Part shown: positions 13,813-63,474 of the stretch, in pieces
How the letters are laid out: the number at the start of each line of letters is the position of its first letter
Position numbering within the stretch: the first letter of the stretch is position 1
DNA from: Candidatus Parcubacteria bacterium
Lineage (GTDB): Bacteria > Patescibacteriota > Minisyncoccia > Minisyncoccales > JAGMDC01
Direction: 5' to 3'
NCBI GenBank assembly: GCA_023128895.1
Contig: JAGMDC010000002.1
Location: 17,368 to 81,367, forward strand
DNA length: 64,000 nt
Translations under genes and position numbers: made by a program
Notes under the pieces: generated by a model
What the model was told of the DNA's origin: nothing
Database searches by the model: none
The model's input: the letters and a program-made list of their open reading frames with translations, nothing else

Positions 13813-13816
13813 ATTT

Positions 13817-14344: not shown

Positions 14345-14454
14345 AATTAAAAAAGTAATTTTTGTTGATTTATAAATGCTAAATTTCGAATATCAATTTT
14401 TTCAAATTTTCTTTATTCTTTATCTTTTATTCTTGATTCATAATTCTATTTCAG

Positions 14455-14597
14455 CAGGGGGCGCCAGGATTCGAAGAGTTGCCACGCAGCACTCGCCGCC
14501 TCGCTTCGCTCGGCGCGGTTCGGGAGGCGGGTTCTCCCCACAGCGCCACAGTTAAAACAAATTTAACGCACCTGTGGCGCGTCAAATTTGTATTTTG
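14455..14597. repeat. GC-rich tRNA-flanking element A with a duplicated tRNA-Trp 3' end
   Basis: 14455-14475 repeats the T-loop-to-3'-end of tRNA-Trp (14598-14617), differing by one extra G. It encloses ~120 nt of GC-rich sequence that starts gagttgcc, contains cctcgcttcgctcggcg and ends in a 9-bp hairpin. Homologous to 63261-63399. Confidence 0.8.
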
Positions 14598-15363: not shown

Positions 15364-15465
15364 GTTCCCTCGCTTCGCTCGGTCAAATTAAAAATTAAAA
15401 GTTAAAAGTTAAAAATGACAGAGCGAAAATCTTAAATTAAAATTATAAATATTTTTCGCAATGTG

Positions 15466-28353: not shown

Positions 28354-28404
28354 AGGTGCCGAACAGAGCCGTTGATGTGGACTCGCGGGCTCTACCAGCC
28401 TGTT

Positions 28405-30706: not shown

Positions 30707-30747
<41 letters not shown>

Positions 30748-31457
30748 GATATCAAGTATTTAGCCTTGGCAGTATAGTTCTGCCTGCTTCCCTCAGGGCT
30801 TTCGTTTCCCGAGGTACTCAAGTATAGACACTAAAGCATATAATGATTTTCGCCTACCGGACTATTACCGTCTCTGGCAGTCCTTTCCAGGATCTTTTGG
30901 CTAATCATCAATTACTCTACTCTAATTAAATAGATGCGTCTAACTTACAACCACCAGCTGCGCCAAAAGGCGCGGCTGATTTTGGGCTGTTCCCTTTTCG
31001 CTCGCCGCTACTAAGGGAATGCGCCATTGTAAACAATGGCTTTGTTTTCTTTTCCTCCGCTTACTGAGATGTTTCACTTCAGCGGGTTTGCTCGCGCCGC
31101 AAGCGGCGCGTAACGCTGTTTTCACAGCGCTGGGTTTTCCCATTCGGACATCGCCGGGTCAAAGGTTGGTAACCACCTCACCGGCGCTTTTCGCAGGCAC
31201 CCCACGTCCTTCATCGCCTTGATATCCCAAGGCATCCACCATTTGCCCTTATTTTAATTACCTTTAGCTAGCAATTAATAACCACTATTTTAATTTTGTT
31301 CTCCATATTTAATTTACAATGTCCTTTCCTATCAAACAAATCAAACAAAAAATCGCTCCTGCAAGAAAGCGATTTTCTGGAAACAAAAATCCCAGAAATT
31401 TACCCGCTTTCTTTTGATATATTCAAAATGGTGTCTTTCTTAAACATTTCCATTTTT

Positions 31458-49700: not shown

Positions 49701-52700
49701 AAAAGTATTGTCGCCATTGGAAGCGGAACCGATAGTGGAATGTTCGTAGTAAATATAAATATTTTGCAAAGAATCAAGATTGTCCTTAACTTCTACCCAG
49801 AAAGTAGCAGTCTGATTGGGAGTTGTACCTTCTGTTTTTTCCAGCCAATAATCCAGCAAAGTGGTCCCATTATCATCAGCAAATCTAACATCGTCAAAAT
49901 CAGGCTGGCAATTTCCTTCAAGGTGAAAATCATAATTGCTGGCTCCGTTTGATTCCCCTACTTTTATTTTTATTTGATAATCAGCTCCAGCTCCCGATGA
50001 GCCTGAAATCGGTATTTTTTTTCTATAAAGCCAATTAGTGTCATACCAACTGGTGCTGGTAATACTATCCATATCATACCAGGTCTCATCTCCTCCGCCG
50101 CAAGCTGCTCCTTGCATTTGGGCATACTGAAGTTTTAAAGACTGGGTCTGGGCAAGCAAATTCGCGCTTTGAACCTGATTGCTTATTCTGGCTCTTATTA
50201 TCTCGTTATCAGCCACTCCGCTAATTTCTATGTTTGGATCCGCTTTAGCGCTTCCTGGCTGGACATTATTAGCATTATCATACCAGCGATAAGTGGTTTG
50301 ATTAAAAGTGAGAACACTTATGGATTTGGAATTTTTATTATTATTCTCATTGCCCTCGGTAATATTGCCATCCCTGTCAATATGAACATAAATGTCATAA
50401 CTTCCTGAGCTCGTTGGTGTCCAGTTTACCTGGACTGTTTGAGTTATTCCAGAAATTAAATTAGTAATCTCTTGAGCTGAACCTATTTGATTGCCGGTTC
50501 CGTCAGGATCTCCATCATAGAATTTGACTAAAATTTCTGGCTCTTTGTAGGCGCGGAACCAACAATCCCTATAAGAATCCAGCGCGACCCAACCTGAACC
50601 TCCGTCCTGTGCTGCATTATTATCCGGGAAGTCTGAGCCAGTATCTACGTCTGCTGTCCAGCACCAGCAATTGGTAGTACTTGTTCCAGTGCCTTCAGCA
50701 ACAATCCAATATTTTGTTCCGTTGCTTAAGGTAGGAATAGTGGAAAATTCAAAATCATACCAGGTATAAGTAGCGGGACCGCTGGTGGGCTGGAATGTTG
50801 CCGTTGCTATAACATTACTGTCATCAGGCAAATTTCCGCTGTCTCCTTGAATCTTTATTGTCAAAGTGCCTGAAGTGCCGTAAGTTTTAAAATTTAAAGC
50901 CACTCTAGACAATCTAAAATCATATGAAGGAATAAAAGATTGAGCCGTATCTGTAGTTGAATATACATAATAACAGCCGCTTATAATAGCGCTATCATTT
51001 TCCTTATCCCAATGCTGGTCAGTAAAAATCTGACCATAATGACTTCCCCCGCTGTTTCGAACAGTAGCTGAGATAGCAATTTCCTCATTAGCTTCAGGAT
51101 TTTTATCACTAAAAACAATATCGCTTGAATTTAAATAAAAATCAGGAAGGATAGTAAGAGTAGTGGTTCCAGGAATTAGCACGGCAATATCTGGAGAAGC
51201 TGTCCCGCTTGATAGGGTAACATCGCTGGCAGGGGTAGTAATTTGAATCTCCAGGGTTTCACCATCAGCGGCTGATGAGCCAACATCTAAAACTACATAA
51301 ACACACATTGATTGAGTAGTAGAAATCGCCGCTGATGAACCGGTAAATGTTGAGGTACCATTAGCTCCGCTGAACCCATCCGTATCAGTCGAGCCAAATT
51401 GGGATTCAGATCCGCCATAGTCTTCACTCGCGCAATCATAGGGAGTTGTGGTATCAAATTCATAAAATATTTTAATATTGTCAAGATTAGTCTGGGCGTT
51501 AACCGTGCCTTGTTCAGTAATAGTAATACCGGTAACATTGCAAGACCCAATATGGTGCTTGATAACAAAAGTTCCCACACATTCATTAGTGCTTGGAACA
51601 GCCAAATCCGCAACCTGGGAACGAACTGTCGTAACCTCAACATCGCAATGAACCTTTACTTCCACATAGTCTGTTTTGAGAAGATTAGCCGTGTCGCCTG
51701 CTAAGTCTGCATGGGTAGCAACTAAATGAAGATAGCCGCTGGCGTCAATATAATTTGAAAAATCGGATGTATAGATTTTGGTAATTTCCTGGTCAGCTGT
51801 CTTATTAGCATGAGAGCCTACTACTTCCCAGCTAGGGGTACCACTAAAATTCCATATGTACAAATAAGATGTTTTGCTCACCGTATGTCCTTCCCATTTA
51901 ACCTCCATCTTATAAATGGTGCTGGAGCTTTCGGCAATATCGAATTTAAAGTGATGCGTGGCCGAATCAGACCTATCGCCATTGGTTTCATATCTGATAT
52001 CATTAGAAGATTCTATTTCTGTATAAGAAGTTACCTCTGTTTCATCTGTTATCGCTGGACCAGAAGCGGGAGGATGGGTTGCCTCGCTCATTTTTTTATA
52101 AAACCACTTATTGGTTCCTCCTCCACTGGTAAAATTATAAGTAGTGGTCGCATCCGAGGCAATCTGCCACTGCCTCGCCTCCTCAAAAATAGCTGTCTGA
52201 GGCCAGGCCTCGGTCAATTTTAATGGGCCTAATAAATAAAAATAAGGGCTAACATCAGGCGCGTCAAAGGTATATTCCAACTCATAGCTCTCCCCTGCTT
52301 TCCACTGAACATCCCAAACAATACTCTTTTCTTCTTGAACTATGGAGGTTGAACCTCCATAGTTCGTTTCTTCTATCTCAAAACTCGCTGGAATTTGTTC
52401 TATAACCTGCCCGGAAAAATCTTGATTCGCTTTGATTTTCAAAGTCATTTCATAATCCGCCAACGGGTAAATTCTGGTTGGCCCGACTCTTTCCACGTCA
52501 AAAGGCACAAGGTCGCGAGTTTCAAATTGGTCAGTAACTTCGTAGCCGTTATCAAGATTGGTTAATTTTATTTCATACACCCCTGTCCCGGCAATTTGGT
52601 AATAAGCAAAATAATCCGGTTTATCAATAACATTGTTTGGCCCGCATTCTTCTGACATTTGAACTTCCGGGCTGGTTACCCAGCCTTCGGGAGAAATAAT

Positions 52701-54632
52701 TTCTAATTTTAAATTCGCGTCGCAAATAGTATGGCCGTTATCCATAAGAGCCGCCATCTGCAAATAAGCTTCCTCTCCGGGTAAATAAATTGACTTGTTC
52801 GTATTTATCGCCAAAACTCCCCAGCTGAAATCTCTTTCAAGTTCCTGAACATTTCCTTGCTCCTCAATTCTTAAAATAATTTTATAGAGACCTGGTTTAA
52901 ATCCTTTCGGTTTTCTTATTTTTAACAAAAATTCGCCGTTGTTTTCTAAAACAAAATCAGGTAAAATTTCAAGAGTTTCTCCTTCTGAATTTATAACTCG
53001 GACAGATGTATTAATATTTTCCCAATAGTTAATAAGGTTTAAAGCTTCTCCAACCGAAGCTAAAAACCCTTCATTAATTTTTTTGTAATGAAACTGGAAT
53101 TCTGGTTCCTCATTTCCCTCAAAATCTTTTTTAAAAGTAAGCAAGGCAATTTCTGGCTCCTCAACCTTTTTTTCCTCTTCATAGATTGCCTCCAACCAAA
53201 TACTATCAAGATAAATTGATAATTCTTTTCCTTGAGGATTATTAGTTAAAGCAGTAAATTTTATTTTAAGCAGCTCAAAATTTTCCCAGTTAAGACTTGA
53301 AGGAAGTTCAAAATAGAAATACCCTGAATTTTGAGCATTGGAATATCCTTGATTTTGCTGAAGAGTAACTATGTTATTCCAATTTTCGCCATTTAAAGAC
53401 CAATCAATCAAGAGCTCGTCATCTTCTCCTTCTCGCCCCTGACTGGCAAAAGAAATACCAACTCTGGCTTCCTTAAGAGCTCCTATCCGTTCGGGCAGGA
53501 CAAAACCGGAATAAGTGACGCTTGACTGATTAAGAAAAATAGTTACTTCTTCATCTTTTACTTCCTCTTCTATTTTTTCTTCTATTTTTTCCTCGCCTTC
53601 TTCAAAAATCTCTCCATCAACTGTCGGAAGAATTATTTCTGGTTCTTCGTCCTCAAATTCCTCTTCCGTTTCCTCTTCCGTTTCCTCTTCCGTTTCCTCT
53701 TCCGTTTCCTCTTCCGTTTCCTCTTCTGCTGTTTCCTCTTCTGTTGTTTCCTCTTCTGTTGTTTCCTCTTCTGCTGTTTCCTCTTCTGCTGTTTCCTCTT
53801 CTGCTGTTTCCTCTTCTGCTGTTTCCTCTTCAGGTTCTCCAATTTCTTGTACCGTATCGCTCACCTCTTGCAACTCATCATTAGTAATTCCGGTTTCCAT
53901 TTCCTGGGCTGAAACCCAAGATAAAAAGGAAAATCTGGAAAAAAACTTTTGAAGAAAAGTCTGCTCTTCCAGCGGCATTTCCTCTTCAGTTGTTTCCTCT
54001 TCAGTTGTTTCCTCTTCAGTTGTTTCCTCTTCTGCTGTTTCCTCTTCTGCTGTTTCCTCTTCTGCTGTTTCCTCTTCTGCTGTTTCCTCTTCTGGCGGCA
54101 CAGTAAGGAAAGTAATTTCTTTAACATTTAAAAAACATGAATTTTCTGAATTAAATTCAGCCGGAAAGGATTCCTCGTCCAATTCTCGAATCAAAGCGTT
54201 TTGGCCATTCTGACAACTTACCTCGCCATCGCCAGTAGATAAATTTTCCTCCCAAACAGTAGGAAAAATTTCTATTTTTACTTCATTAGAAGGAATAGCA
54301 TAAATAACTAAAGCAGAAAAACCGGCAAAAAGAAATATAATGGCTGACAATGCATAACGAGGGCTTTTTAAAAAAATATCGGTTAACTTTTTATACCAAA
54401 AAATTCTTTGAGCCTTGGAATATTTGCTCAATTTCTTTTTTTTCTCTTTCTTGGTCTGATACTTAGCTATTGCTTCGCTGGTGGTAAACCAGTTCCTTCC
54501 CAAGGAAACCGCTTTGCCTTTTATCTTCCCTTTTCTAATTAAATATCCGATATAGTCCGGGGCATAGCCAGATATTTTGGCTGCCTCTTTGAGAGAAATA
54601 TATTTATTTTTATCTGTTTTCTTTTTTTTCAT
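40740..54632 (-). CDS. giant (4630-aa) membrane-anchored surface protein with HTH, TM helix, acidic repeats, DUF2341/LamG, 14 RCC1 repeats, beta-helix-like repeats and a WxL-like C-terminus
   Basis: Uninterrupted 13.9-kb ORF. N-terminal KYISLKEAAKISGYAPDYIGYLIRKGKIKG (HTH_17-like). TM helix ALSAIIFLFAGFSALVIYAI. (EETA)n arrays. WYDTNWLYRKKIPISG...DDVRFADDNGTTLLDYW...FWVEV (DUF2341). 14 copies of YHTCAV-x-NAGNAYCWG-x5-GRLGDG. Confidence 0.85.
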   Translation of the reverse strand: MKKKKTDKNKYISLKEAAKISGYAPDYIGYLIRKGKIKGKAVSLGRNWFTTSEAIAKYQTKKEKKKKLSKYSKAQRIFWYKKLTDIFLKSPRYALSAIIFLFAGFSALVIYAIPSNEVKIEIFPTVWEENLSTGDGEVSCQNGQNALIRELDEESFPAEFNSENSCFLNVKEITFLTVPPEEETAEEETAEEETAEEETAEEETTEEETTEEETTEEEMPLEEQTFLQKFFSRFSFLSWVSAQEMETGITNDELQEVSDTVQEIGEPEEETAEEETAEEETAEEETAEEETTEEETTEEETAEEETEEETEEETEEETEEETEEEFEDEEPEIILPTVDGEIFEEGEEKIEEKIEEEVKDEEVTIFLNQSSVTYSGFVLPERIGALKEARVGISFASQGREGEDDELLIDWSLNGENWNNIVTLQQNQGYSNAQNSGYFYFELPSSLNWENFELLKIKFTALTNNPQGKELSIYLDSIWLEAIYEEEKKVEEPEIALLTFKKDFEGNEEPEFQFHYKKINEGFLASVGEALNLINYWENINTSVRVINSEGETLEILPDFVLENNGEFLLKIRKPKGFKPGLYKIILRIEEQGNVQELERDFSWGVLAINTNKSIYLPGEEAYLQMAALMDNGHTICDANLKLEIISPEGWVTSPEVQMSEECGPNNVIDKPDYFAYYQIAGTGVYEIKLTNLDNGYEVTDQFETRDLVPFDVERVGPTRIYPLADYEMTLKIKANQDFSGQVIEQIPASFEIEETNYGGSTSIVQEEKSIVWDVQWKAGESYELEYTFDAPDVSPYFYLLGPLKLTEAWPQTAIFEEARQWQIASDATTTYNFTSGGGTNKWFYKKMSEATHPPASGPAITDETEVTSYTEIESSNDIRYETNGDRSDSATHHFKFDIAESSSTIYKMEVKWEGHTVSKTSYLYIWNFSGTPSWEVVGSHANKTADQEITKIYTSDFSNYIDASGYLHLVATHADLAGDTANLLKTDYVEVKVHCDVEVTTVRSQVADLAVPSTNECVGTFVIKHHIGSCNVTGITITEQGTVNAQTNLDNIKIFYEFDTTTPYDCASEDYGGSESQFGSTDTDGFSGANGTSTFTGSSAAISTTQSMCVYVVLDVGSSAADGETLEIQITTPASDVTLSSGTASPDIAVLIPGTTTLTILPDFYLNSSDIVFSDKNPEANEEIAISATVRNSGGSHYGQIFTDQHWDKENDSAIISGCYYVYSTTDTAQSFIPSYDFRLSRVALNFKTYGTSGTLTIKIQGDSGNLPDDSNVIATATFQPTSGPATYTWYDFEFSTIPTLSNGTKYWIVAEGTGTSTTNCWCWTADVDTGSDFPDNNAAQDGGSGWVALDSYRDCWFRAYKEPEILVKFYDGDPDGTGNQIGSAQEITNLISGITQTVQVNWTPTSSGSYDIYVHIDRDGNITEGNENNNKNSKSISVLTFNQTTYRWYDNANNVQPGSAKADPNIEISGVADNEIIRARISNQVQSANLLAQTQSLKLQYAQMQGAACGGGDETWYDMDSITSTSWYDTNWLYRKKIPISGSSGAGADYQIKIKVGESNGASNYDFHLEGNCQPDFDDVRFADDNGTTLLDYWLEKTEGTTPNQTATFWVEVKDNLDSLQNIYIYYEHSTIGSASNGDNTFIFFDDFPDAAINGTKWTSATVGNGSITVADSLAKLHNSGDPSEAKITTNNSFAFGNITEIKAKIKTGNNDYTVIGLKDTDNYLYQFVNYAPAWEVARKYFQLKKSGTSVNRDLIIAFDTWYEIKMFSRGNFAEYWQGDTLIHKETYSSYCPSSTATAPILLQAHGFAPAITDHLQADWVKVRKYAYPEPEIGTSESQESTTTQATLWKGDNSNTTPSDGDPITSSLLDSQSNALESYEEENCSVANPAEITSTSKGEWDWVIKNNGAPDSTAYCFRMIEDDGVSFTTYTNYPKLTTSGVGIIVSGVAYTDEGSNTLNTSGGAIKLVNSTTGDTFSDSDGTDASGNWSISVTTTPSAGDVLTIWIDGASADGTLVFKYGDGCAGGNCTGLHLYQNRVIIRNEHTVNVTNADLADCDNDTTTTGTECEDTEIGFTSDLSGTYNLVVSDTRKLYIWTTDTFEPGGTVTTSPSNDGTDTNVNGDLLIQSGAALSMGANALSIGGDYTNYGTFSKSSGQDTSFTATASGFEITENIFEDAIFSGSNGGWSFTDSAIINGNLTMTAGTLSNTSNLTVKGGTADGSGILTFSDGTHLANIKTISAGAYHTCAVSNAGNAYCWGSDGNGRLGDGGTTEKSVPQRVHKGEAASGDFDTDWLANVKSISAGGYHTCAVSNAGNAYCWGEGGNGRLGDGGTTEKLVPQRVHKGEAASGDFDTDWLANVKSISAGDYHTCAVSNAGNAYCWGYALYGQLGDGQAETKSVPQRVHKGEAASSDFDTDWLANVKSISAGAGYESGKSHTCAVSYAGNAYCWGESEDGRLGDGQIADDKSVPQRVHKGEAVSGDYDSTETWLANVKSISAGSYHTCAVSNAGNTYCWGDALYGQLGDGQKVDKSDPQRVHQGEAVSGDYDGTHLANIKIINAGNGYTCAVSNAGNPYCWGAADNGRLGNGQTSGDYTTPVRALKGEAAASDIADMDLLGDVKPISAGGHHTCAVSNAGNAYCWGVAGNGRLGDGQTTTDKSIPQRAHKGEAATSDTAVADFFNNIKIISAGGHHTCAVSNTNNAYCWGMAANGRLGDGQTTVDKTTPVRVLKGEAVIGDHDGINLTSVKTISARNGYTCAVSNADNIYCWGDGADGRLGDGQTADKSVPQRVHKGEAASGDYDADWLANVKNISTANAHTCAVSNASNAYCWGYAGYGQLGDGQETETPQTTPQRVHKGEAVTGDFDTDWLANVQSIAAGANHSCAVSHAGNAYCWGYAGNGRLGDGQTAIKSIPQRVHKGEAVSGDYDTDWLINVKSISADYRHTCAVSHAGNAYCWGYALDGRLGDGQETDKTVPQRVHKGEAVSGDYDTDWLANAKSISTGYHHTCAVSNAGNAYCWGYPANGRLGDGQTTLDKTTPVRVLKGEAVTGDHDNTNLTNIKTIIAGYYHGCAWSNADNAYCWGVAGNGQLGDGQISDKSVPQRVHKGKGEESVSDFLRPIFTLISSGNFGGSNAWTFVSLSFGDGSTSGTSASQNSGAISVSNLLIIESSHILNAGSKTWTLSGSGTPFTNKGTFTASTSTVAYEGTSATTITALTGSNKYNNLTIGNVSDNNTVTYTSGGNTDVGGNFLITSSGTGTHTFVAPSSLAVAGNWTNNDAFTHNSGTVNFNGAGAQTINSSNSWYDLSITTSTARTITFESDVAITQTIVSGGSLTLTGISGQLLTLAPSAPTTQWLLNLNAAATESISYVSVSYSNANSGDTIQAADGTNDNGGNNENWNFGVGITVSGVAYTDEGSNTLNTSGGAIKLVNSTTGVAFSDSNGTDASGNWSISVTTTPSAGDVLTIWINGATGGEKGTIVLKYGDGCTGGDCTGLHLYQNRVIIRNEHTGSVTNANLADCDNNSTTTGIECTDAQIGFTSDLSGTYNLVVSDTRKLYVWTTDTFEPGGTVTTSPSNDGTDTNVDGDIHIEGTGILTMGANALSVGGDFYNEGTFNKTNPQTTTFTATATGHTITDGGENFDTIIFNGTNGGWSFADSTIIDVDLTMTAGTLSGTNDITAKGDVKCGASCGTISLTSASTFKQSVGTSKSFGPQIVGANNWTFYNLIFDSSAGTPTITFNGTNTGTFTVSNDLTLTNTGTSLAVDNNTNNRILDINNDVSIGAGVTFSAAPSAAFTVGGSWTNSGAFTHGSGTVTFDAVDAGHTVNAGSSSFSNVIFSGVSGEWSPLTNTMTIIGDLTMTNGIFNTTSGTANVTANGDVKCGASCGVISMTTTNTFKQSVGTSKSFGPQIAGADNWIFYNLIFDSSAGTPTITFNGTNTGTFTVSNDLTLTNTGTSLAVDNNTNNRILDINNDVSIGAGVTFSAAPSAAFTIGGSWTNSGAFTHGSGTVTFDAAADTKTLSGTLNGSSAFHNLTFGQTSGTATWNLSSALEVNNDLTIDFGTLGQGAHNINLDKNLAINANGNFTSGTGIFIFDGTTGPYTWTNAAAIDDLGAVEINGTTLVINLGSSVKAASVNIYVSQTLSANGSNTLTLTGSGTPLTRGGTFTASTGTVEYTSGSGVTALASAAMTGSNAFNNLIINGTGTFTLGVDIESGNDLTVTSGTLAGTNNVTAKGNITGAGTVTLTSGTFEQIVALNKTFGSSSGANNWTFNNLKFNNSDGAATRAITPNAGTGDIIISGTLTLGDSGTQTITFDNETSNDRVFDINGSILISSQGIFSASSTASFRVAANFTNNGTFTANSGTVTFDTTGISVLDGSGTPAITFHNFTSTTAGKTLKFTATKTFQINGNFLIQGADSNQIIINSTTTTQWLINHQGTEDVTYAHISNSGCAGSSTNISLENTSTDGGNNGSCWLFPSLSFTLDAASKSLDLNSVNTFTATATTTLTVSTTATFGYNLTAYETDNMRHTAYSSVTISDWAGTNAVPTVWTGTCIDNTQCGWGYNTGDADLTQFAANEYAGFVGSSQAPGDIVAKSTAPVTNDATTITYRASVLATQSAGPYKTTIIYIVTPEF
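42600..43590. repeat. two near-identical ~585-bp tandem units inside the giant gene
   Basis: 42631-42885 and 43216-43470 are almost identical; the track antisense ORFs differ at 3 of 84 aa. Offset is 585 bp (195 aa). Confidence 0.9.
43880..44430. repeat. dispersed ~550-bp direct repeat, copy A (partner at 48260-48808)
   Basis: Encodes G-I-T/I-VSGVAYTDEGSNTLNTSGGAIKLVNSTTG...TDTFEPGGTVTTSPSNDGTDTNV in both copies. Offset is about 4378 bp. The two copies flank the RCC1 array. Confidence 0.85.
45300..47945 (-). repeat. array of 14 RCC1-type repeats
   Basis: 14 CWG-x4-5-G-[RQ]-LG-[DN]-G cores were counted in the translation. Period is about 50-60 aa. Confidence 0.85.
48260..48808. repeat. dispersed ~550-bp direct repeat, copy B
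   Basis: See 43880-44430. Confidence 0.85.
53650..53835. repeat. 12-nt tandem array encoding (EET[AET])n, array 2
   Basis: ttcctcttc[ct]g[ct]tg units are visible. Confidence 0.9.
53985..54095. repeat. 12-nt tandem array encoding (EET[AT])n, array 1
   Basis: Same unit as 53650-53835. Confidence 0.9.
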
Positions 54633-56832: not shown

Positions 56833-57332
56833 GGGATTTTCTTTTCTCCAAGCACGCACATTCAGAATTCTCAGCCCTTGCCAGTAATAACAACCACATC
56901 GTTGGGCGGCGTAATGGCTCAACGGCAATGGCGGCGAAGCCTCCGACATACGACGCAAATCGCTTATGGTGGTGTTTATTAGACGAAGTCCGAACTTATT
57001 ACGAACAGAACCCCGACGCTGATTGATTGCCACAAAGCGATAATCCTGTCCAGCGTTTCCGCTCGCCTTCGCTTCGCTACGGCGAGCAAAACAGAAAAAT
57101 TTTCTAAACATTTTTTTAATCGCCCTCTCGCAAATTTTTTTCAATTTAATTAAAGAAAAGAAAATTTTTCTGTTTTGATATTCTGCTGTCGCAGAATTGC
57201 GGAAACGCTTTTCAATCCTTGACGCTCGGGCGGGGCGGGAAGAAAAAGGGGTGTGGGGAAAATGAATTCCCGCCCCGCCCTCGCTTTGGACGCCGACGGA
57301 ATTTATGCCAGCGTTAGCTGGCGCGCCGCTAT

Positions 57333-59291: not shown

Positions 59292-60278
59292 TTATTTTGT
59301 TGAATTAATTATTAATTGTGGAAAATTATATAAAACATCTCTCACTAATGTTTTATCTGTACTTTGAAATGTTGTTTTCGTGATATCAACCAAGAAAAAA
59401 TATCTTAAATCATTTATATCACGATCAGTTTTTTTCGACCAAAAAAGTATTTCGCCATTTCCTTTTAATGCTCCGCCTGAGATTTGGAAATCTACATATT
59501 GCGACCAAGATTTTATTTGCTTTTTAAACTCCAAAATTAAGTTATCCACCTCGCTTGTGCTCAATGACGAATGAAATAATTTCATCTGTTGGTTATCACC
59601 TTCAGTAAAAGAAATATGTGAGGTGCTACCATATTCTTTCCCAAATTGAAAATAATTATCTGAGTCTACGCCAGACCAAACAATCTTATACGGAGAATTA
59701 TCATCGGGAATTATATAACCGCTTTGAGTTCCAGCACTAGGCATTACAGGAGATATTATCAAATAATTACATTGAGCCATAAATAATTTTCCCGTTGAAT
59801 TATATAGCTTATCGTAATTTGATTTATCGGCAACAAATTGAATATTAAGTTTAAGTTCATTTAGCGTAGTCCCGTTTTGATTCAATAAATTTATTAAACT
59901 ACTGCTATCAATTAAATTTTTTTCAAAATCTGAGATATCGCCTTGATGTATGATTATATTTGAAGGATTGCTCCACTGGAAAGAATGAGTCGTTTGTGGA
60001 AACATAAATTCAAGGTTTAACTGAATTTTACCAAAAAAACTTTTTTCCTGCTCTATTTCATTAATGGCTATTTGCTTTAACATTATTGCTCGTGCTCGCC
60101 TTGGCTCGCGTTCTAAGTAGCCTTTTTTTGCAATAGCATCTAACAAATCTTTAGCGGTCTGTTTTGAGGATACCCCTAATTTTTCAGCAAGCTCAAAAAG
60201 AGTGGGTATTTTCCCTACCTTTTGTCCCTCATATATGATTTTTACAGCTTCACGCTGGCGATCAGTTAACTTTTTCAT
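59292..60278 (-). CDS. LexA-type winged-HTH N-domain fused to an unknown ~250-aa C-domain
   Basis: MKKLTDRQREAVKIIYEGQKVGKIPTLFELAEKLGVSSKQTAKDLLDAIAKKGYLEREPRRARAIML aligns well with the LexA DNA-binding domain. No S24 Ser/Lys peptidase motifs follow. Confidence 0.55.
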   Translation of the reverse strand: MKKLTDRQREAVKIIYEGQKVGKIPTLFELAEKLGVSSKQTAKDLLDAIAKKGYLEREPRRARAIMLKQIAINEIEQEKSFFGKIQLNLEFMFPQTTHSFQWSNPSNIIIHQGDISDFEKNLIDSSSLINLLNQNGTTLNELKLNIQFVADKSNYDKLYNSTGKLFMAQCNYLIISPVMPSAGTQSGYIIPDDNSPYKIVWSGVDSDNYFQFGKEYGSTSHISFTEGDNQQMKLFHSSLSTSEVDNLILEFKKQIKSWSQYVDFQISGGALKGNGEILFWSKKTDRDINDLRYFFLVDITKTTFQSTDKTLVRDVLYNFPQLIINSTK

Positions 60279-60286
60279 ATGCCTCT

Positions 60287-60316
60287 ATTATATACCTTAC
60301 ATAAGTAAGGTGTCAA
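60287..60316 (-). promoter_or_regulatory. consensus promoter with a palindromic operator; near-leaderless start
   Basis: Minus sense has TTGACA, an 18-nt spacer containing CCTTAC-TTAT-GTAAGG, then TATAAT. The -10 ends 8 nt before the ATG at 60278. Confidence 0.6.
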
Positions 60317-60328
60317 GCCCTCAAACTA

Positions 60329-61111
60329 TTATTTTCCAGAAATGAATGATTTTATTCTATTATTAGCCAAATCAACATATTTTTTATCCTTTTCAATGCC
60401 TACCCAATTTCTACCAAGGGCTTTTGCGACAACTGCTGTTGTCCCGCTTCCCATAAATGGATCCAAAACTAAATCTCCTTTACTGCTGGCGGAAAGTAAA
60501 ACTTGTTGAATCAATTTAAGTGGTTTTTGTGTTGGATGTGCTTTTATTCCATTTTCATCTTTCAATCTTTCTTGCCCTCTACATAAACCAAAAACCCAAT
60601 CAGTATCTTTCATTTGCTTTCCACCATTCATTTTTTTCAAAAATTCATAATTAAAAGTATATTCTTTGGAATTTTTATTTTTTACAGACCAAATCAAGGT
60701 TTCGTGATTATTTGTGAATCTTCGTCCGTTAAGATTTGGTAGCGCGTCAATTTTAACCCAGATAACATCGTTCAAAAACCACAACCCCAAATCTTGCATA
60801 ATTTTTCCAACACGAAAAATATTGTGATACATACCTATAACCCAAAAAGTTCCCGTCGGTTTTAATATTCTTTGGCACTCTTTAATCCAATTTTTGGTAA
60901 AATTGTCGTAATCTTCATAACTTTCAAATTGATCCCATTCATCATCAACAGGGATAATTTCAGAACCGTCAGCCCTTTTCAATCTTTTGCCTTTTGGTAA
61001 TTGTAGATAATAAGGGGGATCTGCAAAAATTAAATCAACGGAATTATCAGAAAATTTTTTCATTTCCTCTATGCAATCGCCACATATTATTTCATTGATA
61101 AATTTTTGCAT
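60329..61111 (-). CDS. beta-class N6/N4 DNA methyltransferase
   Basis: 260 aa. Motif IV is FADPPYY (N-terminal) and motif I is DPFMGSGTT (C-terminal). Confidence 0.85.
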   Translation of the reverse strand: MQKFINEIICGDCIEEMKKFSDNSVDLIFADPPYYLQLPKGKRLKRADGSEIIPVDDEWDQFESYEDYDNFTKNWIKECQRILKPTGTFWVIGMYHNIFRVGKIMQDLGLWFLNDVIWVKIDALPNLNGRRFTNNHETLIWSVKNKNSKEYTFNYEFLKKMNGGKQMKDTDWVFGLCRGQERLKDENGIKAHPTQKPLKLIQQVLLSASSKGDLVLDPFMGSGTTAVVAKALGRNWVGIEKDKKYVDLANNRIKSFISGK

Positions 61112-61117
61112 AGAAAA

Positions 61118-62239
61118 TTAAAAATTGTAAACGATGAGATGCTCAACATCTCTGTTGTTTCTACCTTTAACATTGTAAAGGTATGTCTTTTCAAAACTAT
61201 CTATTTTTATACTTTTTTTGTTGTTGTATAAATTGTAGATAAAAGGAGTTTTTTTTATTATCAAAATAAAATTTGCTTTTGTTTTGTATAAACAATTTGC
61301 TAATCGTTCTTGGTCTTTCTTGTCAAAAGATTTTTTTTCGTAATCACTAAAATCTGTGTCGTATGGGGGGTCGAGGAAAACAAAATCTTTTTTTGAAACA
61401 TCATGGTTATTAAAAATCTTTTCAAAATCTTGATTTTTTATTATTGTATTTTTAAATAGATTTTTGACTTCATCACTGAAAATATAATCTACTTTGCTTC
61501 TGAAATCCTTTTTATTGTAGCCAATGCCACCATAGGGAATATTGAAATGTCCATTTGTATTAAAACGAAACATTGATCCATAACAAAATTCCCTAATAAA
61601 ATAATAATTTGCGATTTTTTTAGGCAAGCTAATTTTGTATTTGTTGCCATTAAAATTCATAACATCTCGAAAGTGCATATAAAACCCGCTTCTAAAAGCC
61701 GTTTCTATATTTTTTTGGAGATCGCCTTCTGGCAATTTTCCTCTTTGTTTTTCAATTTCCCTTGTTCTGTAAATTTTAGAAATTAAATTTAAACTAATTT
61801 GCTTTAGCAAATTTTGTTCATCTAAACAGAATTTATTGAGAAATAGCCCATTAAAATGATCTTCTTTTTTTTTCAGAATATCATTGATTCTTTTTGCCAA
61901 TTCTTTTTTATCAATTTCGGCTCTTTTATATTTCTCATATAAATTTACAATTTTATTTTCAAAGATTCCTATATATTTTGGAATCTTTTCCCAATTTATA
62001 ACATATTCATAAAGTTCTTTTTCAAATTTTTCTCGCTCGTTTTTATCTTTCAATAAATTATAAAAATCTGTTAATTCCTCGCAAATATCATTTATAATCG
62101 CTTTTTTTGGTTTTAACTGAAAAAAAATACCTCCGCCGCCAAAAAAAGGTTCAATATACCGCTCGTATGACGGGATTAAACCTTTTATGTGCGAAAATTC
62201 TTTTGTTTTGCCGCCGGGCCATTTAATAAGTGTTCGCAT
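61118..62239 (-). CDS. Dam-family (D12 class) DNA adenine methyltransferase
   Basis: 373 aa. KWPGGK, EPFFGGGG and FLDPPY motifs. Longer than typical Dam because of an internal insert. Confidence 0.8.
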   Translation of the reverse strand: MRTLIKWPGGKTKEFSHIKGLIPSYERYIEPFFGGGGIFFQLKPKKAIINDICEELTDFYNLLKDKNEREKFEKELYEYVINWEKIPKYIGIFENKIVNLYEKYKRAEIDKKELAKRINDILKKKEDHFNGLFLNKFCLDEQNLLKQISLNLISKIYRTREIEKQRGKLPEGDLQKNIETAFRSGFYMHFRDVMNFNGNKYKISLPKKIANYYFIREFCYGSMFRFNTNGHFNIPYGGIGYNKKDFRSKVDYIFSDEVKNLFKNTIIKNQDFEKIFNNHDVSKKDFVFLDPPYDTDFSDYEKKSFDKKDQERLANCLYKTKANFILIIKKTPFIYNLYNNKKSIKIDSFEKTYLYNVKGRNNRDVEHLIVYNF

Positions 62240-62248
62240 ATTTTAAAA

Positions 62249-63067
62249 TTAATCAAGATAAGTTTTTTTAATAGAATCTAACGCTTTTGTAATCATTCCT
62301 GCTTTTTCTTTGTATGCGCTCAAAACTACATGATATCCGTCATCTGATTTACACACAAAATCCCAAAAATCTTTTCCAATTAACAGCTCGTCATCGGCAA
62401 AAAATTGTCGTACTCTTTCCTGCTTCCATTCTTTACCTTCGCCATATCTGTTATAGGCGGTTGCAAAATGGATTATAATATTTTTATCTTTTGGTAATGT
62501 ATTTGATAAAATCACAAATTGTTCTAAAAGTGCCTCTTTTTCAGAGCGCGCTTTTTTATTATCTAAATCACCGCCAATTTTTAATTCAATTAAAAAATTA
62601 TCGCCTGTCTTTTTATCAATTAAATAATAATCGCTCTCGTGTCTTTTAGTTTTTAGTTTGTTGTCTTTTGGTTTTACTCTCAAAAATTGATAATCTTCAA
62701 TCGTCGGAGGTGTTATCTCTCGTCTTTTATATTTCTCAAGTAATTCAGCAATTCCTCTTGTTTGCTCAACGCCCAAAGGTCCCTCAACTCTTTTTTTGAC
62801 TTCGTAGGAAAAACCAGCGATGTTTATCGCCAATTTTTCAAGCATATTCCCTAATGAACTATCTAACGAGCGGACAAGGGAAGAATAATATTGAATATCT
62901 GATCCAAGCGCTGCTATAAAAACATTATGGATTTTCATATTAATTGTGCCGTTTGGATTATCTACTTCGCCCTCGTGGCGCGCTTGAAATCCTTCCGCAT
63001 AAGATTCAATCGCTGTATGAACAAGTGATCGGATTGCTTCTTTTTTGTCTAAAGTATTGTTTGTCAT
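62249..63067 (-). CDS. type II restriction endonuclease candidate (PD-(D/E)XK)
   Basis: 272 aa. HESDYYLID...FLIELKIGGDLDNKKA (D...ELK). Sits directly upstream of two MTase genes. Family uncertain (recalls TdeIII-like enzymes). Confidence 0.5.
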   Translation of the reverse strand: MTNNTLDKKEAIRSLVHTAIESYAEGFQARHEGEVDNPNGTINMKIHNVFIAALGSDIQYYSSLVRSLDSSLGNMLEKLAINIAGFSYEVKKRVEGPLGVEQTRGIAELLEKYKRREITPPTIEDYQFLRVKPKDNKLKTKRHESDYYLIDKKTGDNFLIELKIGGDLDNKKARSEKEALLEQFVILSNTLPKDKNIIIHFATAYNRYGEGKEWKQERVRQFFADDELLIGKDFWDFVCKSDDGYHVVLSAYKEKAGMITKALDSIKKTYLD

Positions 63068-63071
63068 ATTT

Positions 63072-63158
63072 TTATTTCATTAAGACATCAAGCGAAACAC
63101 CGAGCGCGTCCGCAATTTTTTTAACAGTATCAATAGTCGGGTTTGGTGTCGCTCCCGC
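63072..63158 (-). pseudogene. 3' remnant of an XRE-HTH (C-protein-like) gene truncated at tRNA-Ala
   Basis: Hand translation gives AGATPNPTIDTVKKIADALGVSLDVLMK*, preceded by an in-frame TAG 11 nt from the tRNA-Ala 3' end. Its stop lies 4 nt before the endonuclease ATG. Confidence 0.45.
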
Positions 63159-63172
63159 CTACATATCGCATT

Positions 63173-63248
63173 TGGTGGACCTGAGCGGATTCGAACCGCT
63201 GACCTCCTCGTTGCAAACGAGGCATTCTGCCAACTGAACTACAGGCCC
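63173..63248 (-). tRNA. tRNA-Ala (UGC), CCA encoded
   Basis: GGGCCTG/CAGGTCC acceptor with G3-U70. Anticodon arm CCTCG-TTTGCAA-CGAGG. T-loop TTCGAAT. ACCA end. Confidence 0.9.
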
Positions 63249-63260
63249 AAAATTATAAAA

Positions 63261-63399
63261 TGTGGGCGAGGAAGGAATCGGAGAGTTGCCCGAAGGCGGT
63301 GTTTCACCTCGCTTTGCTCGGCGAAACGCGGGGGGAGGTCCTCACCACACCACACCATACATAAAAATTTATGAACACCTGCAGTGTTCAAAGTTTTTA
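63261..63399. repeat. GC-rich tRNA-flanking element B with a duplicated tRNA-Ile 3' end
   Basis: 63261-63282 is identical (22 nt) to 63400-63421, the T-loop-to-3'-end of tRNA-Ile. The interior starts gagttgcc, contains cctcgctttgctcggcg and ends in the hairpin GAACAC-ctgca-GTGTTC. Homologous to 14455-14597. Confidence 0.8.
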
Positions 63400-63401
63400 T
63401 G

Positions 63402-63474
63402 TGGGCGAGGAAGGAATCGGACCTTCGACCTCTGCTTTATCAGAGCAGCGTTCTAACCACTGAACTACTCGCCC
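63402..63474 (-). tRNA. tRNA-Ile (GAU)
   Basis: GGGCGAG/CTCGCCC acceptor. Anticodon arm CTGCT-CTGATAA-AGCAG. T-arm GAAGG-TCCGATT-CCTTC. Confidence 0.85.

What the first reader, a model, noticed from the sequence alone, without database searches (positions are those of the whole stretch)
63261..63399. Second copy of the tRNA-flanking GC-rich element, between tRNA-Ile and tRNA-Ala of the rRNA spacer
A perfect 22-nt duplication of the tRNA-Ile T-loop-to-3'-end (63261-63282 equals 63400-63421) encloses 117 nt with the same architecture as the tRNA-Trp element at 14455-14597:
- gagttgcc at the junction;
- the block cctcgctttgctcggcg;
- a GGGGGGAGG tract;
- the hairpin GAACAC-CTGCA-GTGTTC followed by a T-run.

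Its location inside an rRNA-operon spacer means it is probably transcribed at high level with the tRNAs. It shows that the element family targets, or co-evolves with, the specific 3' end of each host tRNA.
Basis: seen in the sequence. Interest (0 to 1): 0.6.

Follow-up and report, generated by a model that had tools for sequence, protein, structure and literature searches.

The report
tRNA-tail insertion element of CPR bacteria
Behind tRNA-Ile lies one copy of an apparently undescribed family of about 140-base non-coding elements, found in candidate-phyla-radiation bacteria, that sit just after tRNA genes and carry a forward and a reversed copy of that tRNA's own 3' end around a conserved GC-rich hairpin.

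Summary
A perfect 23-nt direct repeat (63260-63282 = 63399-63421) of the tRNA-Ile T-loop-to-3'-end encloses 116 nt, and the unit is homologous to the one behind tRNA-Trp.

All genes here read on the minus strand. In that sense each unit is:
- tRNA;
- an AT-rich, terminator-like hairpin;
- an imperfect antisense copy of the tRNA's T-arm and acceptor 3' strand;
- a conserved module, a 4-bp helix enclosing a hairpin capped by GAGCRAAGCGA, ending in CCUUCGGGCAACUC;
- an exact sense copy of the T-loop to the 3' end.

About 27 further loci from low-GC CPR contigs show the same plan behind at least 16 tRNA isoacceptors. No Rfam family, phage, plasmid or paper matched.

Several results point to an insertional, probably non-autonomous mobile element:
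- relatives differ in presence or absence;
- a 148-nt block is identical in two unrelated contexts;
- tandem, chimeric, orphan and decayed copies exist.

Hairpin covariation and many G·U pairs show that the tRNA-sense strand folds. The enzyme and the nature of the intermediate are unknown. The main rival is a tRNA-like small RNA gene. High-level co-transcription with rRNA is not supported.

The parts
63401..63474 (-). Host gene, tRNA-Ile(GAT). Its last 21 nt plus 2 trailing nt (63399-63421) form repeat copy A1.
   Evidence: ARAGORN; Rfam tRNA, 74.5 bits; repeat D1.
63359..63398 (-). S: an AT-rich long hairpin that abuts the tRNA 3' end. It is terminator-like, with core GAACAC-UGCAG-GUGUUC, A/U-rich flanks, and differing bases on both sides of the stem in the Trp copy.
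   Evidence: Inverted repeats I3 and I5; fold; terminator-like site at 63390-63372 on the minus strand. Every family member has a hairpin here with a different sequence.
63333..63358 (-). 5' half: an imperfect antisense copy of the host tRNA's T-arm and acceptor 3' strand. In this copy the acceptor-complement is degenerate (GGUGU repeats). The conserved GUGGUGAGGAC follows, then CCUCC, a copy of the host T-stem 3' strand CCUUC. GGA in place of the family's GAA matches this tRNA's unusual T-loop, UCC in place of UUC.
   Evidence: Alignments; permutation test on the 5-nt host copy; duplex test; pair 27/95 A-U to G-C.
63289..63332 (-). Conserved module. P2 (CCCG 63329-63332 with CGGG 63289-63292) encloses hairpin P3. 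In P3, stem 63320-63326 pairs with 63302-63308 (UUUCGCC / GGUGAAA) and the 11-nt cap GAGCAAAGCGA lies at 63309-63319.
   Evidence: Covariance-model alignment; pair counts on 26 sequences, where 5 of 6 lower P3 pairs change on both sides and 0 of 500 shuffles reach the observed score.
63283..63288 (-). Nearly invariant junction CAACUC, the end of CCUUCGGGCAACUC. It abuts the tRNA fragment.
   Evidence: Conserved in at least 90% of the 26 aligned members.
63260..63282 (-). A2: an exact sense copy of the tRNA-Ile T-loop, T-stem 3' strand, acceptor 3' strand and discriminator, plus 2 nt. tRNA-Ala starts 11 nt further on.
14453..14597 (-). Sister copy behind tRNA-Trp (14597-14668). It has hairpin S (14554-14594), a 5' half, a P3 with stem CGCC/GGCG, and the fragment 14458-14475, which carries a 1-nt insertion relative to the tRNA.
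15368..15382 (-). Solitary CCGAGCGAAGCGAGG hairpin-cap motif 83 nt after tRNA-Thr. An S-like hairpin precedes it, and it supplies the Shine-Dalgarno sequence of rpmG. It is either a decayed copy or a lone REP-like hairpin.
   Evidence: Relatives have only 30-47 nt between tRNA-Thr and rpmG and lack the motif.

Best explanation
**What it is.** The feature is one copy of a family of small non-coding insertion elements, here called tRNA-tail elements. A unit is about 120-140 nt plus a roughly 22-nt tRNA fragment. The family occurs in Patescibacteria/CPR bacteria. This window is from a Candidatus Parcubacteria genome.

**What moves (shown).** The unit is [terminator-like hairpin S] - [imperfect antisense copy of the host tRNA's T-arm and acceptor 3' strand] - [conserved P2/P3 module] - [sense copy of T-loop to 3' end]. 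It sits immediately after the 3' end of an intact tRNA gene.

**How it works (inferred).**
- The unit is a non-autonomous mobile or selfishly propagating element.
- It recognises its target by base pairing. Its 5' half is complementary to the target, and its own 3' end duplicates the target.
- Insertion therefore leaves the tRNA functional and recreates the target site at the element's far end. This would explain the tandem arrays.
- The folded and selected species is a single strand of tRNA sense, either the transcript or single-stranded DNA.
- The GC-rich capped hairpin is a REP-like structural or recognition module.
- The enzyme is encoded elsewhere and is unknown. In logic the system most resembles HUH (IS200/IS605, IS91, RAYT) transposition or folded-att-site recombination.

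**State in this genome.** The Ile, Trp and Thr-linked copies look old and partly decayed.
For: **A family exists.** Exact-pattern scans found two genomic and 27 metagenomic loci with the same plan. The covariance model found more.

**Host range.** Hosts cover at least 16 isoacceptors: Gln x2, Leu x2, Ser x3, Arg x4, Ile, Lys x2, Asp and Trp.

**Three host-specific parts.**
- The terminal fragment matches the upstream tRNA at 20-22 of 22 positions in 16 of 22 copies with a detectable upstream T-loop.
- The 5-nt internal copy of the T-stem 3' strand scores 97 against 80.6 +/- 3.4, with 0 of 5000 permutations as high.
- For the acceptor-complement, a locus's own fragment beats all but 0-4 of 25 foreign fragments in 15 of 19 non-chimeric loci.

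**Folding of the tRNA-sense strand.**
- P3 shows changes on both sides in 5 of 6 lower-stem pairs, and no shuffle reaches the observed score.
- 31 of 187 P1 pairs are G·U, which would be A·C mismatches on the other strand.

**Insertional behaviour.**
- Relatives with the same gene order (tRNA-Tyr, tRNA-Thr, rpmG, NUDIX, tRNA-Trp) lack the element (L086-L088). L085 and L093 have it.
- L061 has tRNA-Arg(TCT) 3 nt from tRNA-His. L070 has the element between these two genes.
- L055 and L058 share a 148-nt identical block. It runs from the last 7 nt of the tRNA end, through S and the module, to the end of the fragment. The flanks are unrelated.
- In L058 there is no tRNA. The upstream look-alike site keeps AGGTTC..CC.AG...GGCAGCA, which are the positions that pair with the element's 5' half.
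- Other states seen:
  - tandem copies (L002/L053, L085);
  - chimeras explained by crossover inside the module (L056 versus L062);
  - orphan copies (L066, L071);
  - decayed copies.
- Module sequence clusters by sample or lineage, not by host tRNA.

**Nothing else explains it.**
- No conserved neighbouring gene.
- No transposase or integrase among the 10 window ORFs scanned against Pfam.
- Not coding, because the reading frame is not conserved (GCAATGCC versus GCAATGTCC).
Against: - No enzyme, circular junction or precise empty site in a near-identical strain was seen. Mobility is therefore inferred from comparisons between diverged contigs.
- Loop and junction sequences (GAGCRAAGCGA, CCUUCGGGCAACUC, GUGGYGAGAAC) are conserved from Parcubacteria to Saccharibacteria. 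That pattern is more typical of a functional RNA than of selfish DNA.
- In L070 and L042 the fragment plus 9 nt stays identical to the tRNA end, while the adjacent duplicated hairpin has diverged. This suggests selection or gene conversion on the fragment, not a passive by-product of insertion.
- 17% G·U pairs favour RNA over DNA pairing.
- How the host-specific antisense and sense segments are re-made when the element reaches a new tRNA is unexplained.
- Clustering of the module by lineage could reflect gene conversion rather than movement.
- The L058 look-alike site is a single case.
- The collection scans required exact matches to the conserved core, so the family's diversity is undersampled.
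Confidence: 0.5

Rival explanations
1. It is a tRNA-like small RNA gene, not a mobile element. The stretch from the acceptor-complement to the tRNA fragment is transcribed. It folds into a tRNA-like minihelix that carries the conserved P2/P3 arm inserted 5' of the T-loop. The minihelix consists of an acceptor-like stem P1, a GG:CC remnant of the T-stem and a genuine T-loop. RNase P, RNase Z and the CCA-adding enzyme process it like a tRNA. It acts in the metabolism or surveillance of its cognate tRNA and co-evolves with it. Copies spread by tRNA-locus duplication and recombination.
For: - P1 complementarity is host-specific and rich in G·U, as expected for RNA-level selection.
- P3 covaries.
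- Unpaired motifs are invariant across deeply diverged CPR lineages.
- The fragment stays identical to the tRNA end while the neighbouring duplicated hairpin diverges.
- In L070 and L042 the unit is followed by its own terminator-like hairpin, like a gene.
- The Ile-linked copy sits at the same place in two lineages with 81-87% 16S identity, and each fragment tracks its own tRNA.
- The model aligns real tRNAs weakly to the element's two ends.
Against: - The terminator-like hairpin S lies upstream, and no promoter of the element's own was found in the window copy.
- Many copies are broken yet retained:
  - the window Ile copy has lost the acceptor-complement;
  - the Trp fragment has an indel;
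  - L085 and L093 lack the T-loop part of the fragment;
  - 6 of about 25 loci are chimeric, so P1 cannot form.
- Close relatives lack the element altogether.
- There is a 148-nt identical block in a context without a tRNA.
- In chimeras the acceptor-complement matches the upstream tRNA, not the fragment it would have to pair with.
- ARAGORN and Rfam do not see a tRNA-like gene there.
Confidence: 0.3
2. The repeats are attL/attR-type scars of tyrosine-integrase-mediated integration into the tRNA T-loop. The 116 nt between them is what remains of, or is the conserved end of, genomic islands such as the defence islands next to tRNA-Trp and tRNA-Ala.
For: - The repeat runs from the T-loop to the end of the tRNA, the classic identity block of tRNA-integrating elements (own knowledge: Williams 2002, Nucleic Acids Res).
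- In this window both copies adjoin variable islands:
  - an M78 peptidase, DUF3800, an OLD-family ATPase and a type I RM system after tRNA-Trp;
  - a TdeIII RM system after tRNA-Ala.
- A different RM island occupies the Trp site in L085.
Against: - No integrase in or near any copy.
- The unit has a uniform length of 113-134 nt between repeats, apart from the 83-nt L002 unit, rather than random deletion remnants.
- It has conserved structure with covariation.
- Most loci lie in housekeeping contexts without islands.
- No third repeat copy lies further along in the window.
- One integrase could not serve 16 different tRNA cores.
- The antisense copy is not explained.
Confidence: 0.1
3. It is a folded single-strand attachment site: an integrating minicircle of the CTX-phage / integron-cassette type. 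Host Xer-like or other tyrosine recombinases would integrate a small single-stranded circle whose two inverted imperfect copies of the tRNA site fold into a hairpin that mimics the target.
For: - The order (site copy, spacer hairpin, inverted imperfect site copy, rest of the element, site copy) is the order expected after CTX-phage-type integration (own knowledge of the Xer/CTX mechanism), and it matches.
- The centre of the inverted repeat is a conserved mismatch bubble.
- Tandem arrays occur.
- The cap contains GCGAAGC, known as an exceptionally stable DNA mini-hairpin (own knowledge).
- The sense strand is the lagging-strand template here, judging from GC skew.
Against: - The recombinase-arm equivalents (the T-stem halves) are mostly mismatched in the folded form.
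- The L058 crossover would lie at the extreme 3' end, not at the T-loop.
- The abundance of G·U/G·T pairs is unfavourable for DNA.
- No circles were observed, and the idea cannot be tested with these tools.
Confidence: 0.1

Closest known systems
REP / REPIN elements and their RAYT (HUH, IS200/IS605-like) transposases
   Same: - Short, non-coding, GC-rich imperfect hairpins in intergenic DNA at gene 3' ends.
- Strand-specific folding.
- They are dispersed, in either orientation, as singlets or inverted doublets.
- The same capped hairpin (stem-GAGCRAAGCGA-stem) occurs alone in these Parcubacteria.
- It also occurs as inverted doublets in Acidobacteriota, Gemmatimonadota and Bacteroidota genomes.
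   Different: - REPs do not carry sense and antisense copies of a neighbouring tRNA's 3' end and are not tRNA-targeted.
- No RAYT gene was looked for or found.
- The full 103-position model matches only the tRNA-tail elements.
IS200/IS605 and IS91-type single-strand transposition, and their non-autonomous PATE derivatives
   Same: - Insertion occurs immediately 3' of a target that is recognised through base pairing with a guide inside the element.
- The element's own end resembles the target.
- The hairpins are subterminal.
- The target is not destroyed, and there is no coding capacity in the derivatives.
   Different: - Known guides are 4-5 nt, whereas here about 8 + 7-10 nt would pair.
- The two hairpins (S and P3) are unrelated to each other.
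- No TnpA or Rep protein has been linked to the family.
- The mechanism is inferred only.
tRNA-integrating genomic islands and prophages (tyrosine integrases)
   Same: - A direct repeat runs from the T-loop to the 3' end of the tRNA.
- The tRNA stays intact.
- Tandem occupancy is possible, and islands lie nearby in this window.
   Different: - The unit is 120-140 nt with no integrase.
- The interior is the same behind 16 different tRNAs.
- There is an extra antisense copy of the site.
CTX-phage (IMEX) folded attP and integron attC sites
   Same: - The imperfect inverted repeats of the target would fold in one strand.
- The centre is a conserved unpaired region.
- The integrated order of parts matches, and arrays occur.
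   Different: - The target is a tRNA, not dif or attI.
- No recombinase is known for the family.
- The arms are poorly paired.
- The cargo is only a hairpin module.
tRNA-like non-coding RNAs (bacterial YrlA/Y RNA, plant mitochondrial t-elements, mascRNA-type processing signals)
   Same: - An acceptor-like stem and a genuine T-loop are combined with a foreign long stem.
- Processing by tRNA enzymes is plausible.
   Different: - The element has no complete T-arm or D-arm.
- Each copy is specific for the tRNA next to it.
- It is multi-copy, variable in presence and often decayed.
- There is no match to Rfam YrlA or any other family.

Membership tests
tRNA gene (Rfam RF00005 / ARAGORN) | Cloverleaf with D, anticodon and T arms that scores above threshold. 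| tested here: not met
   ARAGORN and Rfam call only the flanking tRNA-Ile and tRNA-Ala, and nothing in 63260-63398.
Any Rfam 15 RNA family | A covariance-model hit at or near the gathering score. | tested here: not met
   The best hits in the element are 18.3 and 16.2 bits against gathering scores of 100 and 42. Ten family loci gave no consistent hit. Loci from other phyla with the same hairpin cap gave none either.
Integrase-borne tRNA-integrating island | Direct repeats of the tRNA 3' part that flank the inserted DNA. | tested here: met
   A 23-nt perfect repeat, seen family-wide.
Integrase-borne tRNA-integrating island | A tyrosine or serine recombinase gene between the repeats, and an interior of kilobase size. 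| tested here: not met
   The interior is 116 nt and non-coding. No integrase was found in the neighbourhoods.
MITE (miniature inverted-repeat transposable element) | Terminal inverted repeats at both element ends, plus a short target-site duplication of fixed length. | tested here: not met
   The inverted repeat lies between the host tRNA end and the element's 5' half, not between the two element ends. The duplicated stretch varies from 18 to about 29 nt of exact identity, and up to about 65 nt of recognisable duplication.
REP/REPIN | A short imperfect palindrome, dispersed in intergenic DNA, occurring as singlets or inverted doublets. | tested here: met
   This holds for the P3 hairpin only. 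Solitary and inverted copies occur in L062, L091 and L093, and doublets occur in other phyla.
REP/REPIN | A cognate RAYT gene in the genome, and a conserved 5' tetranucleotide next to the hairpin. | not tested
   Only 64 kb of the genome is available. Of its ORFs, only 10 were scanned against Pfam, and none was a Y1 transposase.
IS200/IS605-type single-strand element (PATE) | Insertion 3' of a target paired to an internal guide, without loss of the target. | tested here: inconclusive
   The identical L055/L058 block starts right after a tRNA end or a look-alike of one, which keeps the positions complementary to the 5' half. This is a single case.
IS200/IS605-type single-strand element (PATE) | Similar subterminal hairpins at both ends, bound by TnpA. 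| tested here: not met
   S is AT-rich and variable, whereas P3 is GC-rich and conserved.
tRNA-like ncRNA (YrlA-type) | An acceptor-like stem plus a T-arm and D-loop mimic, and a discrete transcript. | tested here: inconclusive
   An acceptor-like P1 and a true T-loop are present in most copies, but the T-stem 5' strand does not covary. Transcripts cannot be tested with these tools.

The most novel reading that the evidence does not exclude
The most novel reading is a base-pairing-guided homing element with no gene of its own. Its 5' half would act as a roughly 25-nt bipartite guide against the T-arm and acceptor 3' strand of one specific tRNA gene, and its 3' end would mimic that target. A host-encoded or trans-encoded enzyme (HUH nuclease, recombinase or reverse transcriptase) would then insert it exactly behind that tRNA. 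Guide and mimic would be re-templated when it colonises a new tRNA. In effect, this would be a naturally programmable, tRNA-addressed mobile RNA or single-stranded DNA of about 140 nt in CPR bacteria.
Probability: 0.2. Interest if true: 0.85.

Novelty: new variant of a known kind. Interest (0 to 1): 0.65.

Why it matters
CPR/Patescibacteria have tiny genomes and few described mobile elements or regulatory RNAs.

**If it is a mobile element.**
- A conserved 140-nt unit that attaches to many different tRNA genes, copying each tRNA's 3' end in both orientations, would be a new type of target-mimicking, possibly guide-directed, non-autonomous element.
- It could also drive genome rearrangement. 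Chimeric copies mark crossovers between tRNA loci, and in this genome both copies sit at the edges of variable defence islands.

**If it is an RNA gene.** It would be a family of tRNA-specific tRNA mimics without precedent.

**Practical value either way.**
- It explains GC-rich islands in AT-rich CPR intergenic DNA.
- It gives an annotation model (103 positions, 12 base pairs) for them.
- It warns against reading the tRNA-end repeats as prophage att sites.

Tried and rejected
- **Protein coding.** Small ORFs overlap the element, but the frame is broken between copies (GCAATGCC versus GCAATGTCC) and an ATG is absent in the window copies. Rejected.
- **Known RNA family.** Rfam scans at gathering and permissive thresholds on the window and on 20 loci found nothing.
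- **Literature.** Searches by sequence string and by topic found nothing relevant. One query was malformed.
- **Phage or plasmid origin.**
  - The IMG/VR pattern scan gave one chance-like hit.
  - blastn against phage and plasmid collections gave no match.
- **Associated gene.** No recurrent neighbour was found in 30 contexts. L060 has a reverse transcriptase plus a four-helix-bundle pair nearby, judged coincidental.
- **cUUCGg tetraloop for CCUUCGGG.** The alternative pairing CCCG:CGGG (P2) is preferred. It is 95% paired. The orphan L066 copy has UUUGGG, which keeps P2 through a G·U pair but is not a UUCG loop.
- **Local T-arm-like hairpin in the 5' half (UGUGG / CCUNN).** The 5' strand does not covary, so only GG:CC pairs.
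- **5' half derived from the tRNA's own 5' part (acceptor plus D-arm).** The model does align GUGGUUAGAAC of tRNA-Ile to GUGGUGAGGAC. However, the following 5 nt match the T-stem, not the anticodon stem, and the Ile-specific GGA fits the reverse complement of the T-loop. This is left as an unresolved resemblance.
- **Antisense of the T-stem 5' strand versus copy of the 3' strand.** tRNAs with G·U in the T-stem gave 2 cases for and 1 against, read by eye from the sequences. Inconclusive.
- **Exact look-up of rpmG for strain variants.** Not on record.
- **RNAalifold on the raw alignment.** It recovered only part of P3, so P1 had to be tested per sequence.
Full report
**1. What is at the coordinates**

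The genes of this region lie on the minus strand. They are the 3' end of 16S rRNA (63723 to the window end), tRNA-Ile(GAT) at 63401-63474 and tRNA-Ala(TGC) at 63173-63248.

- A 21-nt version is found nowhere else in the window, even with three mismatches, against 0.01 expected.
- The copy inside the tRNA is its T-loop, T-stem 3' strand, acceptor 3' strand, discriminator and two further bases.

The unit behind tRNA-Trp (14453-14597) is homologous.
- 77% of alignment columns are identical.
- The two share an exact 17-mer core. With up to 3 mismatches the core has 4 hits against 0.10 expected.
- A covariance model built from 26 family members, which include these two copies, scores them at 78.4 and 77.5 bits. 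These are self-matches by construction. The next hit in the window scores 14 bits.

**2. The setting is not a normal rRNA spacer**

- 23S, which carries a group I intron, and 5S lie about 32 kb away.
- tRNA-Ala is followed by a TdeIII-type restriction-modification (RM) system.
- Terminator-like and promoter-like sites lie between 16S and tRNA-Ile.
- A terminator-like hairpin (63372-63390) lies between tRNA-Ile and the GC-rich part.
- High-level co-transcription with rRNA is therefore not supported.
- A NUDIX protein of the window is 100% identical to one annotated from Candidatus Parcubacteria, on a 170-kb ENA scaffold.

**3. A family**

A scan of one genome per species with the core pattern found two true relatives, L002 (a 26% GC MAG) and L042 (Ca. 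Saccharibacteria). The remaining hits share only the hairpin cap. A metagenome scan found 27 loci (L053-L079), all low in GC. The covariance model later added divergent copies.

Read in tRNA sense, every intact member has the same order of parts.
- **The complete tRNA.**
- **S.** An AT-rich hairpin of variable sequence that abuts the tRNA end. It often has the form of an intrinsic terminator.
- **Acceptor-complement.** 7-10 nt complementary to the tRNA's acceptor 3' strand.
- **Conserved stretch.** (A/G)UGUGGYGAGAAC.
- **Host copy.** 5 nt that copy the host's T-stem 3' strand.
- **Conserved module.**
  - CCCCG;
  - hairpin P3 with the 11-nt cap GAGCRAAGCGA;
  - (G)CCUUCGGGCAACUC.
- **Junction.** 0-1 nt.
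- **Terminal fragment.** An exact copy of the host's T-loop to the discriminator, plus 1-2 nt.

The distance between the two tRNA-end copies is 113-134 nt in all but the compact L002 type, where it is 83 nt. Hosts include at least 16 isoacceptors of nine amino acids.

**4. Which parts track the host**

- **Terminal fragment.** It matches the upstream tRNA at 20-22 of 22 positions in 16 of 22 copies with a detectable upstream T-loop.
- **Internal 5-nt copy.** It matches the host T-stem 3' strand far better than permuted pairings do: 97 against 80.6 +/- 3.4, with 0 of 5000 permutations as high.
- **Acceptor-complement.** It pairs with its own fragment better than with all but 0-4 of 25 foreign fragments in 15 of 19 non-chimeric loci.
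- **The Ile copy.** The family's GAGAAC reads GAGGAC in the window's Ile copy. This tRNA also has the unusual T-loop UCCGAUU instead of UUCGAAU. This is the only both-sided change at that proposed pair.

Taken together, the 5' half is an imperfect reverse complement of tRNA positions about 49-73, with a conserved non-complementary centre. The 3' end is a direct copy of positions 54-73.

**5. Structure**

- On 26 sequences, hairpin P3 has changes on both sides in 5 of 6 lower-stem pairs.
  - The variants are CGCC/GGCG, UGCC/GGCA, UCCC/GGGA and CACC/GGUG, plus a tandem G·A variant.
  - No shuffle out of 500 reaches the observed covariation, and slid controls collapse.
  - The 5' strand of P3 was not part of the search pattern.
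- P2 (CCCG:CGGG) is 95% paired but almost invariant.
- P1 contains 31 G·U among 187 pairs. It is therefore the tRNA-sense strand that folds, and RNA fits that better than DNA does.
- The window's own Ile copy has a degenerate acceptor-complement, and its P1 is not distinctive: 9 of 25 foreign fragments pair as well.

**6. Evidence that the unit is inserted and spreads**

(a) *Presence or absence at tRNA-Trp.* Relatives with the same gene order (tRNA-Tyr, tRNA-Thr, rpmG, NUDIX, tRNA-Trp) were compared.
- L086-L088 (NUDIX 75% identical) have 14 nt between tRNA-Trp and the next gene, and 30 nt between tRNA-Thr and rpmG.
- L085 (85%) and L093 (74%) carry an orthologous, partly decayed Trp element.

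(b) *Presence or absence at tRNA-Arg.* L061 has tRNA-Arg(TCT) and tRNA-His 3 nt apart. L070 has the element between them.

(c) *An identical block in two contexts.* L055 and L058, from one metagenome, share a 148-nt identical block.
- It starts with the last 7 nt of the tRNA-Gln end and runs through S and the module to the end of the fragment.
- The flanks are unrelated on both sides.
- L058 has no tRNA. The 26 nt before the block match the tRNA end only at AGGTTC..CC.AG...GGCAGCA.
- Those are the positions that would pair with the element's GAAUCU, GG and GUUGC.

(d) *Tandem copies.* These occur in L002/L053 and L085.

(e) *Chimeras.*
- In 6 of about 25 loci the fragment belongs to another tRNA.
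- The acceptor-complement then fits the upstream tRNA, not the fragment (-16.2 against -5.0 kcal/mol in L056).
- L056 and L062 are identical from CCCCCGAAUUG through the fragment. The right flank continues nearly identical, while everything to the left differs. A crossover inside the conserved module explains this.

(f) *Orphans.* Copies away from any tRNA occur in L066 (3333-3425) and L071. The L066 copy has a plain hairpin in place of the capped one.

(g) *Module relationships.* Module sequences group by sample or lineage, not by host tRNA.
- Copies on Gln, Lys and Ser hosts are 92-97% identical to one another.
- The two Arg(GCG) copies, L060 and L066, are not each other's closest relatives. 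L060's nearest copy is only 81% identical.

(h) *No associated gene.* There is no recurrent neighbouring gene. None of the 10 window ORFs scanned against Pfam is an integrase or transposase.

**7. Points that pull the other way**

- The unpaired motifs are conserved from Parcubacteria to Saccharibacteria.
- The Ile-linked copy sits at the same place in a lineage whose 16S 3' part is only 81-87% identical, and each fragment follows its own tRNA.
- In L070 and L042 the tRNA end plus hairpin S is duplicated.
  - The first 29 nt remain identical.
  - The hairpin has diverged, with differing bases on both sides of the stem.
- These points fit a selected RNA, a tRNA-like minihelix carrying a foreign arm. 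Gene conversion is an alternative.
- I keep the RNA-gene reading as the main rival.

**8. The hairpin cap is a wider phenomenon**

- The same stem-GAGCGAAGCGA-stem hairpin occurs alone and in either orientation in intergenic DNA of these Parcubacteria:
  - L062 165-184;
  - L091 about 990-1055;
  - L093 760-850.
- It occurs as inverted doublets preceded by GTCAT in Acidobacteriota, Gemmatimonadota, Bacteroidota and others. It is also part of a multi-copy repeat in a Clostridiales MAG.
- This is REP/REPIN-like behaviour.
- The cap contains GCGAAGC, which I recall as an exceptionally stable DNA mini-hairpin (own knowledge, not tested here).
- In the window the motif occurs three times against 0.38 expected, always on the tRNA-sense strand after a tRNA (Trp, Thr, Ile).
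- The Thr-linked one (15368-15382) stands alone and supplies the ribosome-binding site of rpmG.

**9. Most likely mechanism**

*Shown*
- The unit lies immediately after an intact tRNA.
- It carries antisense and sense copies of that tRNA's 3' part.
- One strand folds.
- Presence varies among relatives.
- One block is identical in two different contexts.

*Inferred*
- The unit from S to the fragment is what inserts, directly 3' of a sequence that both pairs with its 5' half and equals its own 3' end.
- This keeps the tRNA intact and recreates the target at the far end.
- In logic it is closest to single-strand HUH transposition (IS200/IS605, IS91, RAYT/REP) or to folded-site recombination (CTX phage, integron attC).
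- An unknown trans-acting enzyme would be needed.

*Unexplained*
- How the host-specific segments are renewed on a new tRNA.
- Why the fragment stays identical to the tRNA.

**10. Verdict**

- The window's copies look old and partly decayed:
  - the Ile copy has lost most of its acceptor-complement;
  - the Trp fragment has an indel;
  - the Thr-linked motif may be a decayed copy or a lone REP-like hairpin.
- The family matches nothing in Rfam 15, the phage and plasmid collections, or the searchable literature.

Noticed in passing
window 27557-31262 (minus): 23S rRNA spans 3562 nt and contains a group I intron (28088-28363). 5S lies next to it. Both are unlinked from the 16S gene at the window end, about 32 kb away.
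   Followed up: no
window 60-14344: A defence island lies directly after the tRNA-Trp element. It holds an M78/ImmA peptidase, DUF3800, an OLD-family ATPase, a type I RM system (HsdM, HsdS, HsdR) with an Xre-type gene, and a 250-aa ORF I took to be a PD-(D/E)XK-like nuclease (no Pfam hit checked). At the same site, relative L085 has an MvaI/BcnI RM island and L086 has housekeeping genes.
   Followed up: partly
window 59292-63170: A type II RM cluster (TdeIII endonuclease, a D12 methyltransferase, an N4/N6 methyltransferase and a LexA-like HTH protein) begins right after tRNA-Ala. Between the tRNA and the endonuclease lies what looks like the C-terminal remnant of an Xre/C-protein gene (..PTIDTVKKIADALGVSLDVL).
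   Followed up: partly
window 20237-20308 (+): A tRNA-like gene (Rfam 49.9 bits) for which ARAGORN reports an abnormal two-base anticodon ('tg') and no amino acid.
   Followed up: no
window 63401-63474: tRNA-Ile has the T-loop UCCGAUU, with C where nearly all tRNAs have U55. Both the duplicated fragment and the GGA in the element's 5' half follow this oddity.
   Followed up: partly
window 57190-57320 (minus): Another GC-rich intergenic palindrome (GGGCGGGGCGGGAA...TTCCCGCCCCGCCC) lies next to a degenerate core-like motif CGGCGTCCAAAGCGAGG. It is not a full family member by the covariance model.
   Followed up: no
In L093 it is flanked by a CAAAG duplication. It looks like a second, nested miniature element.
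   Followed up: no
L046 5140-5280 (minus); also L018: In an Oscillospiraceae MAG, the first 21 nt of tRNA-Lys are duplicated about 115 nt upstream of the gene. The interval holds a CC-GAGCGAAGCGA-GG hairpin. This may be a mirror-image analogue at a tRNA 5' end.
   Followed up: partly
L011, L017, L024, L029, L038 and others: Inverted doublets of GTCAT(T/C)CC-GAGCGAAGCGA-GG(A/G)ATC occur in Acidobacteriota, Gemmatimonadota and Bacteroidota genomes. They are REPIN-like and share the identical 11-nt cap with the CPR element.
   Followed up: partly
window 40740-54632 (minus): A single ORF of 4630 aa. Its region has higher GC (0.44-0.50) than the rest of the window.
   Followed up: no
L057 2746-3234: The 16S rRNA gene of that lineage is interrupted by about 490 nt relative to the window's 16S, which suggests an intron or intervening sequence.
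   Followed up: no
L091 172-639: A LAGLIDADG endonuclease gene lies between tRNA-Tyr and tRNA-Thr, where the window has a 209-aa tRNA_SAD-domain gene.
   Followed up: no
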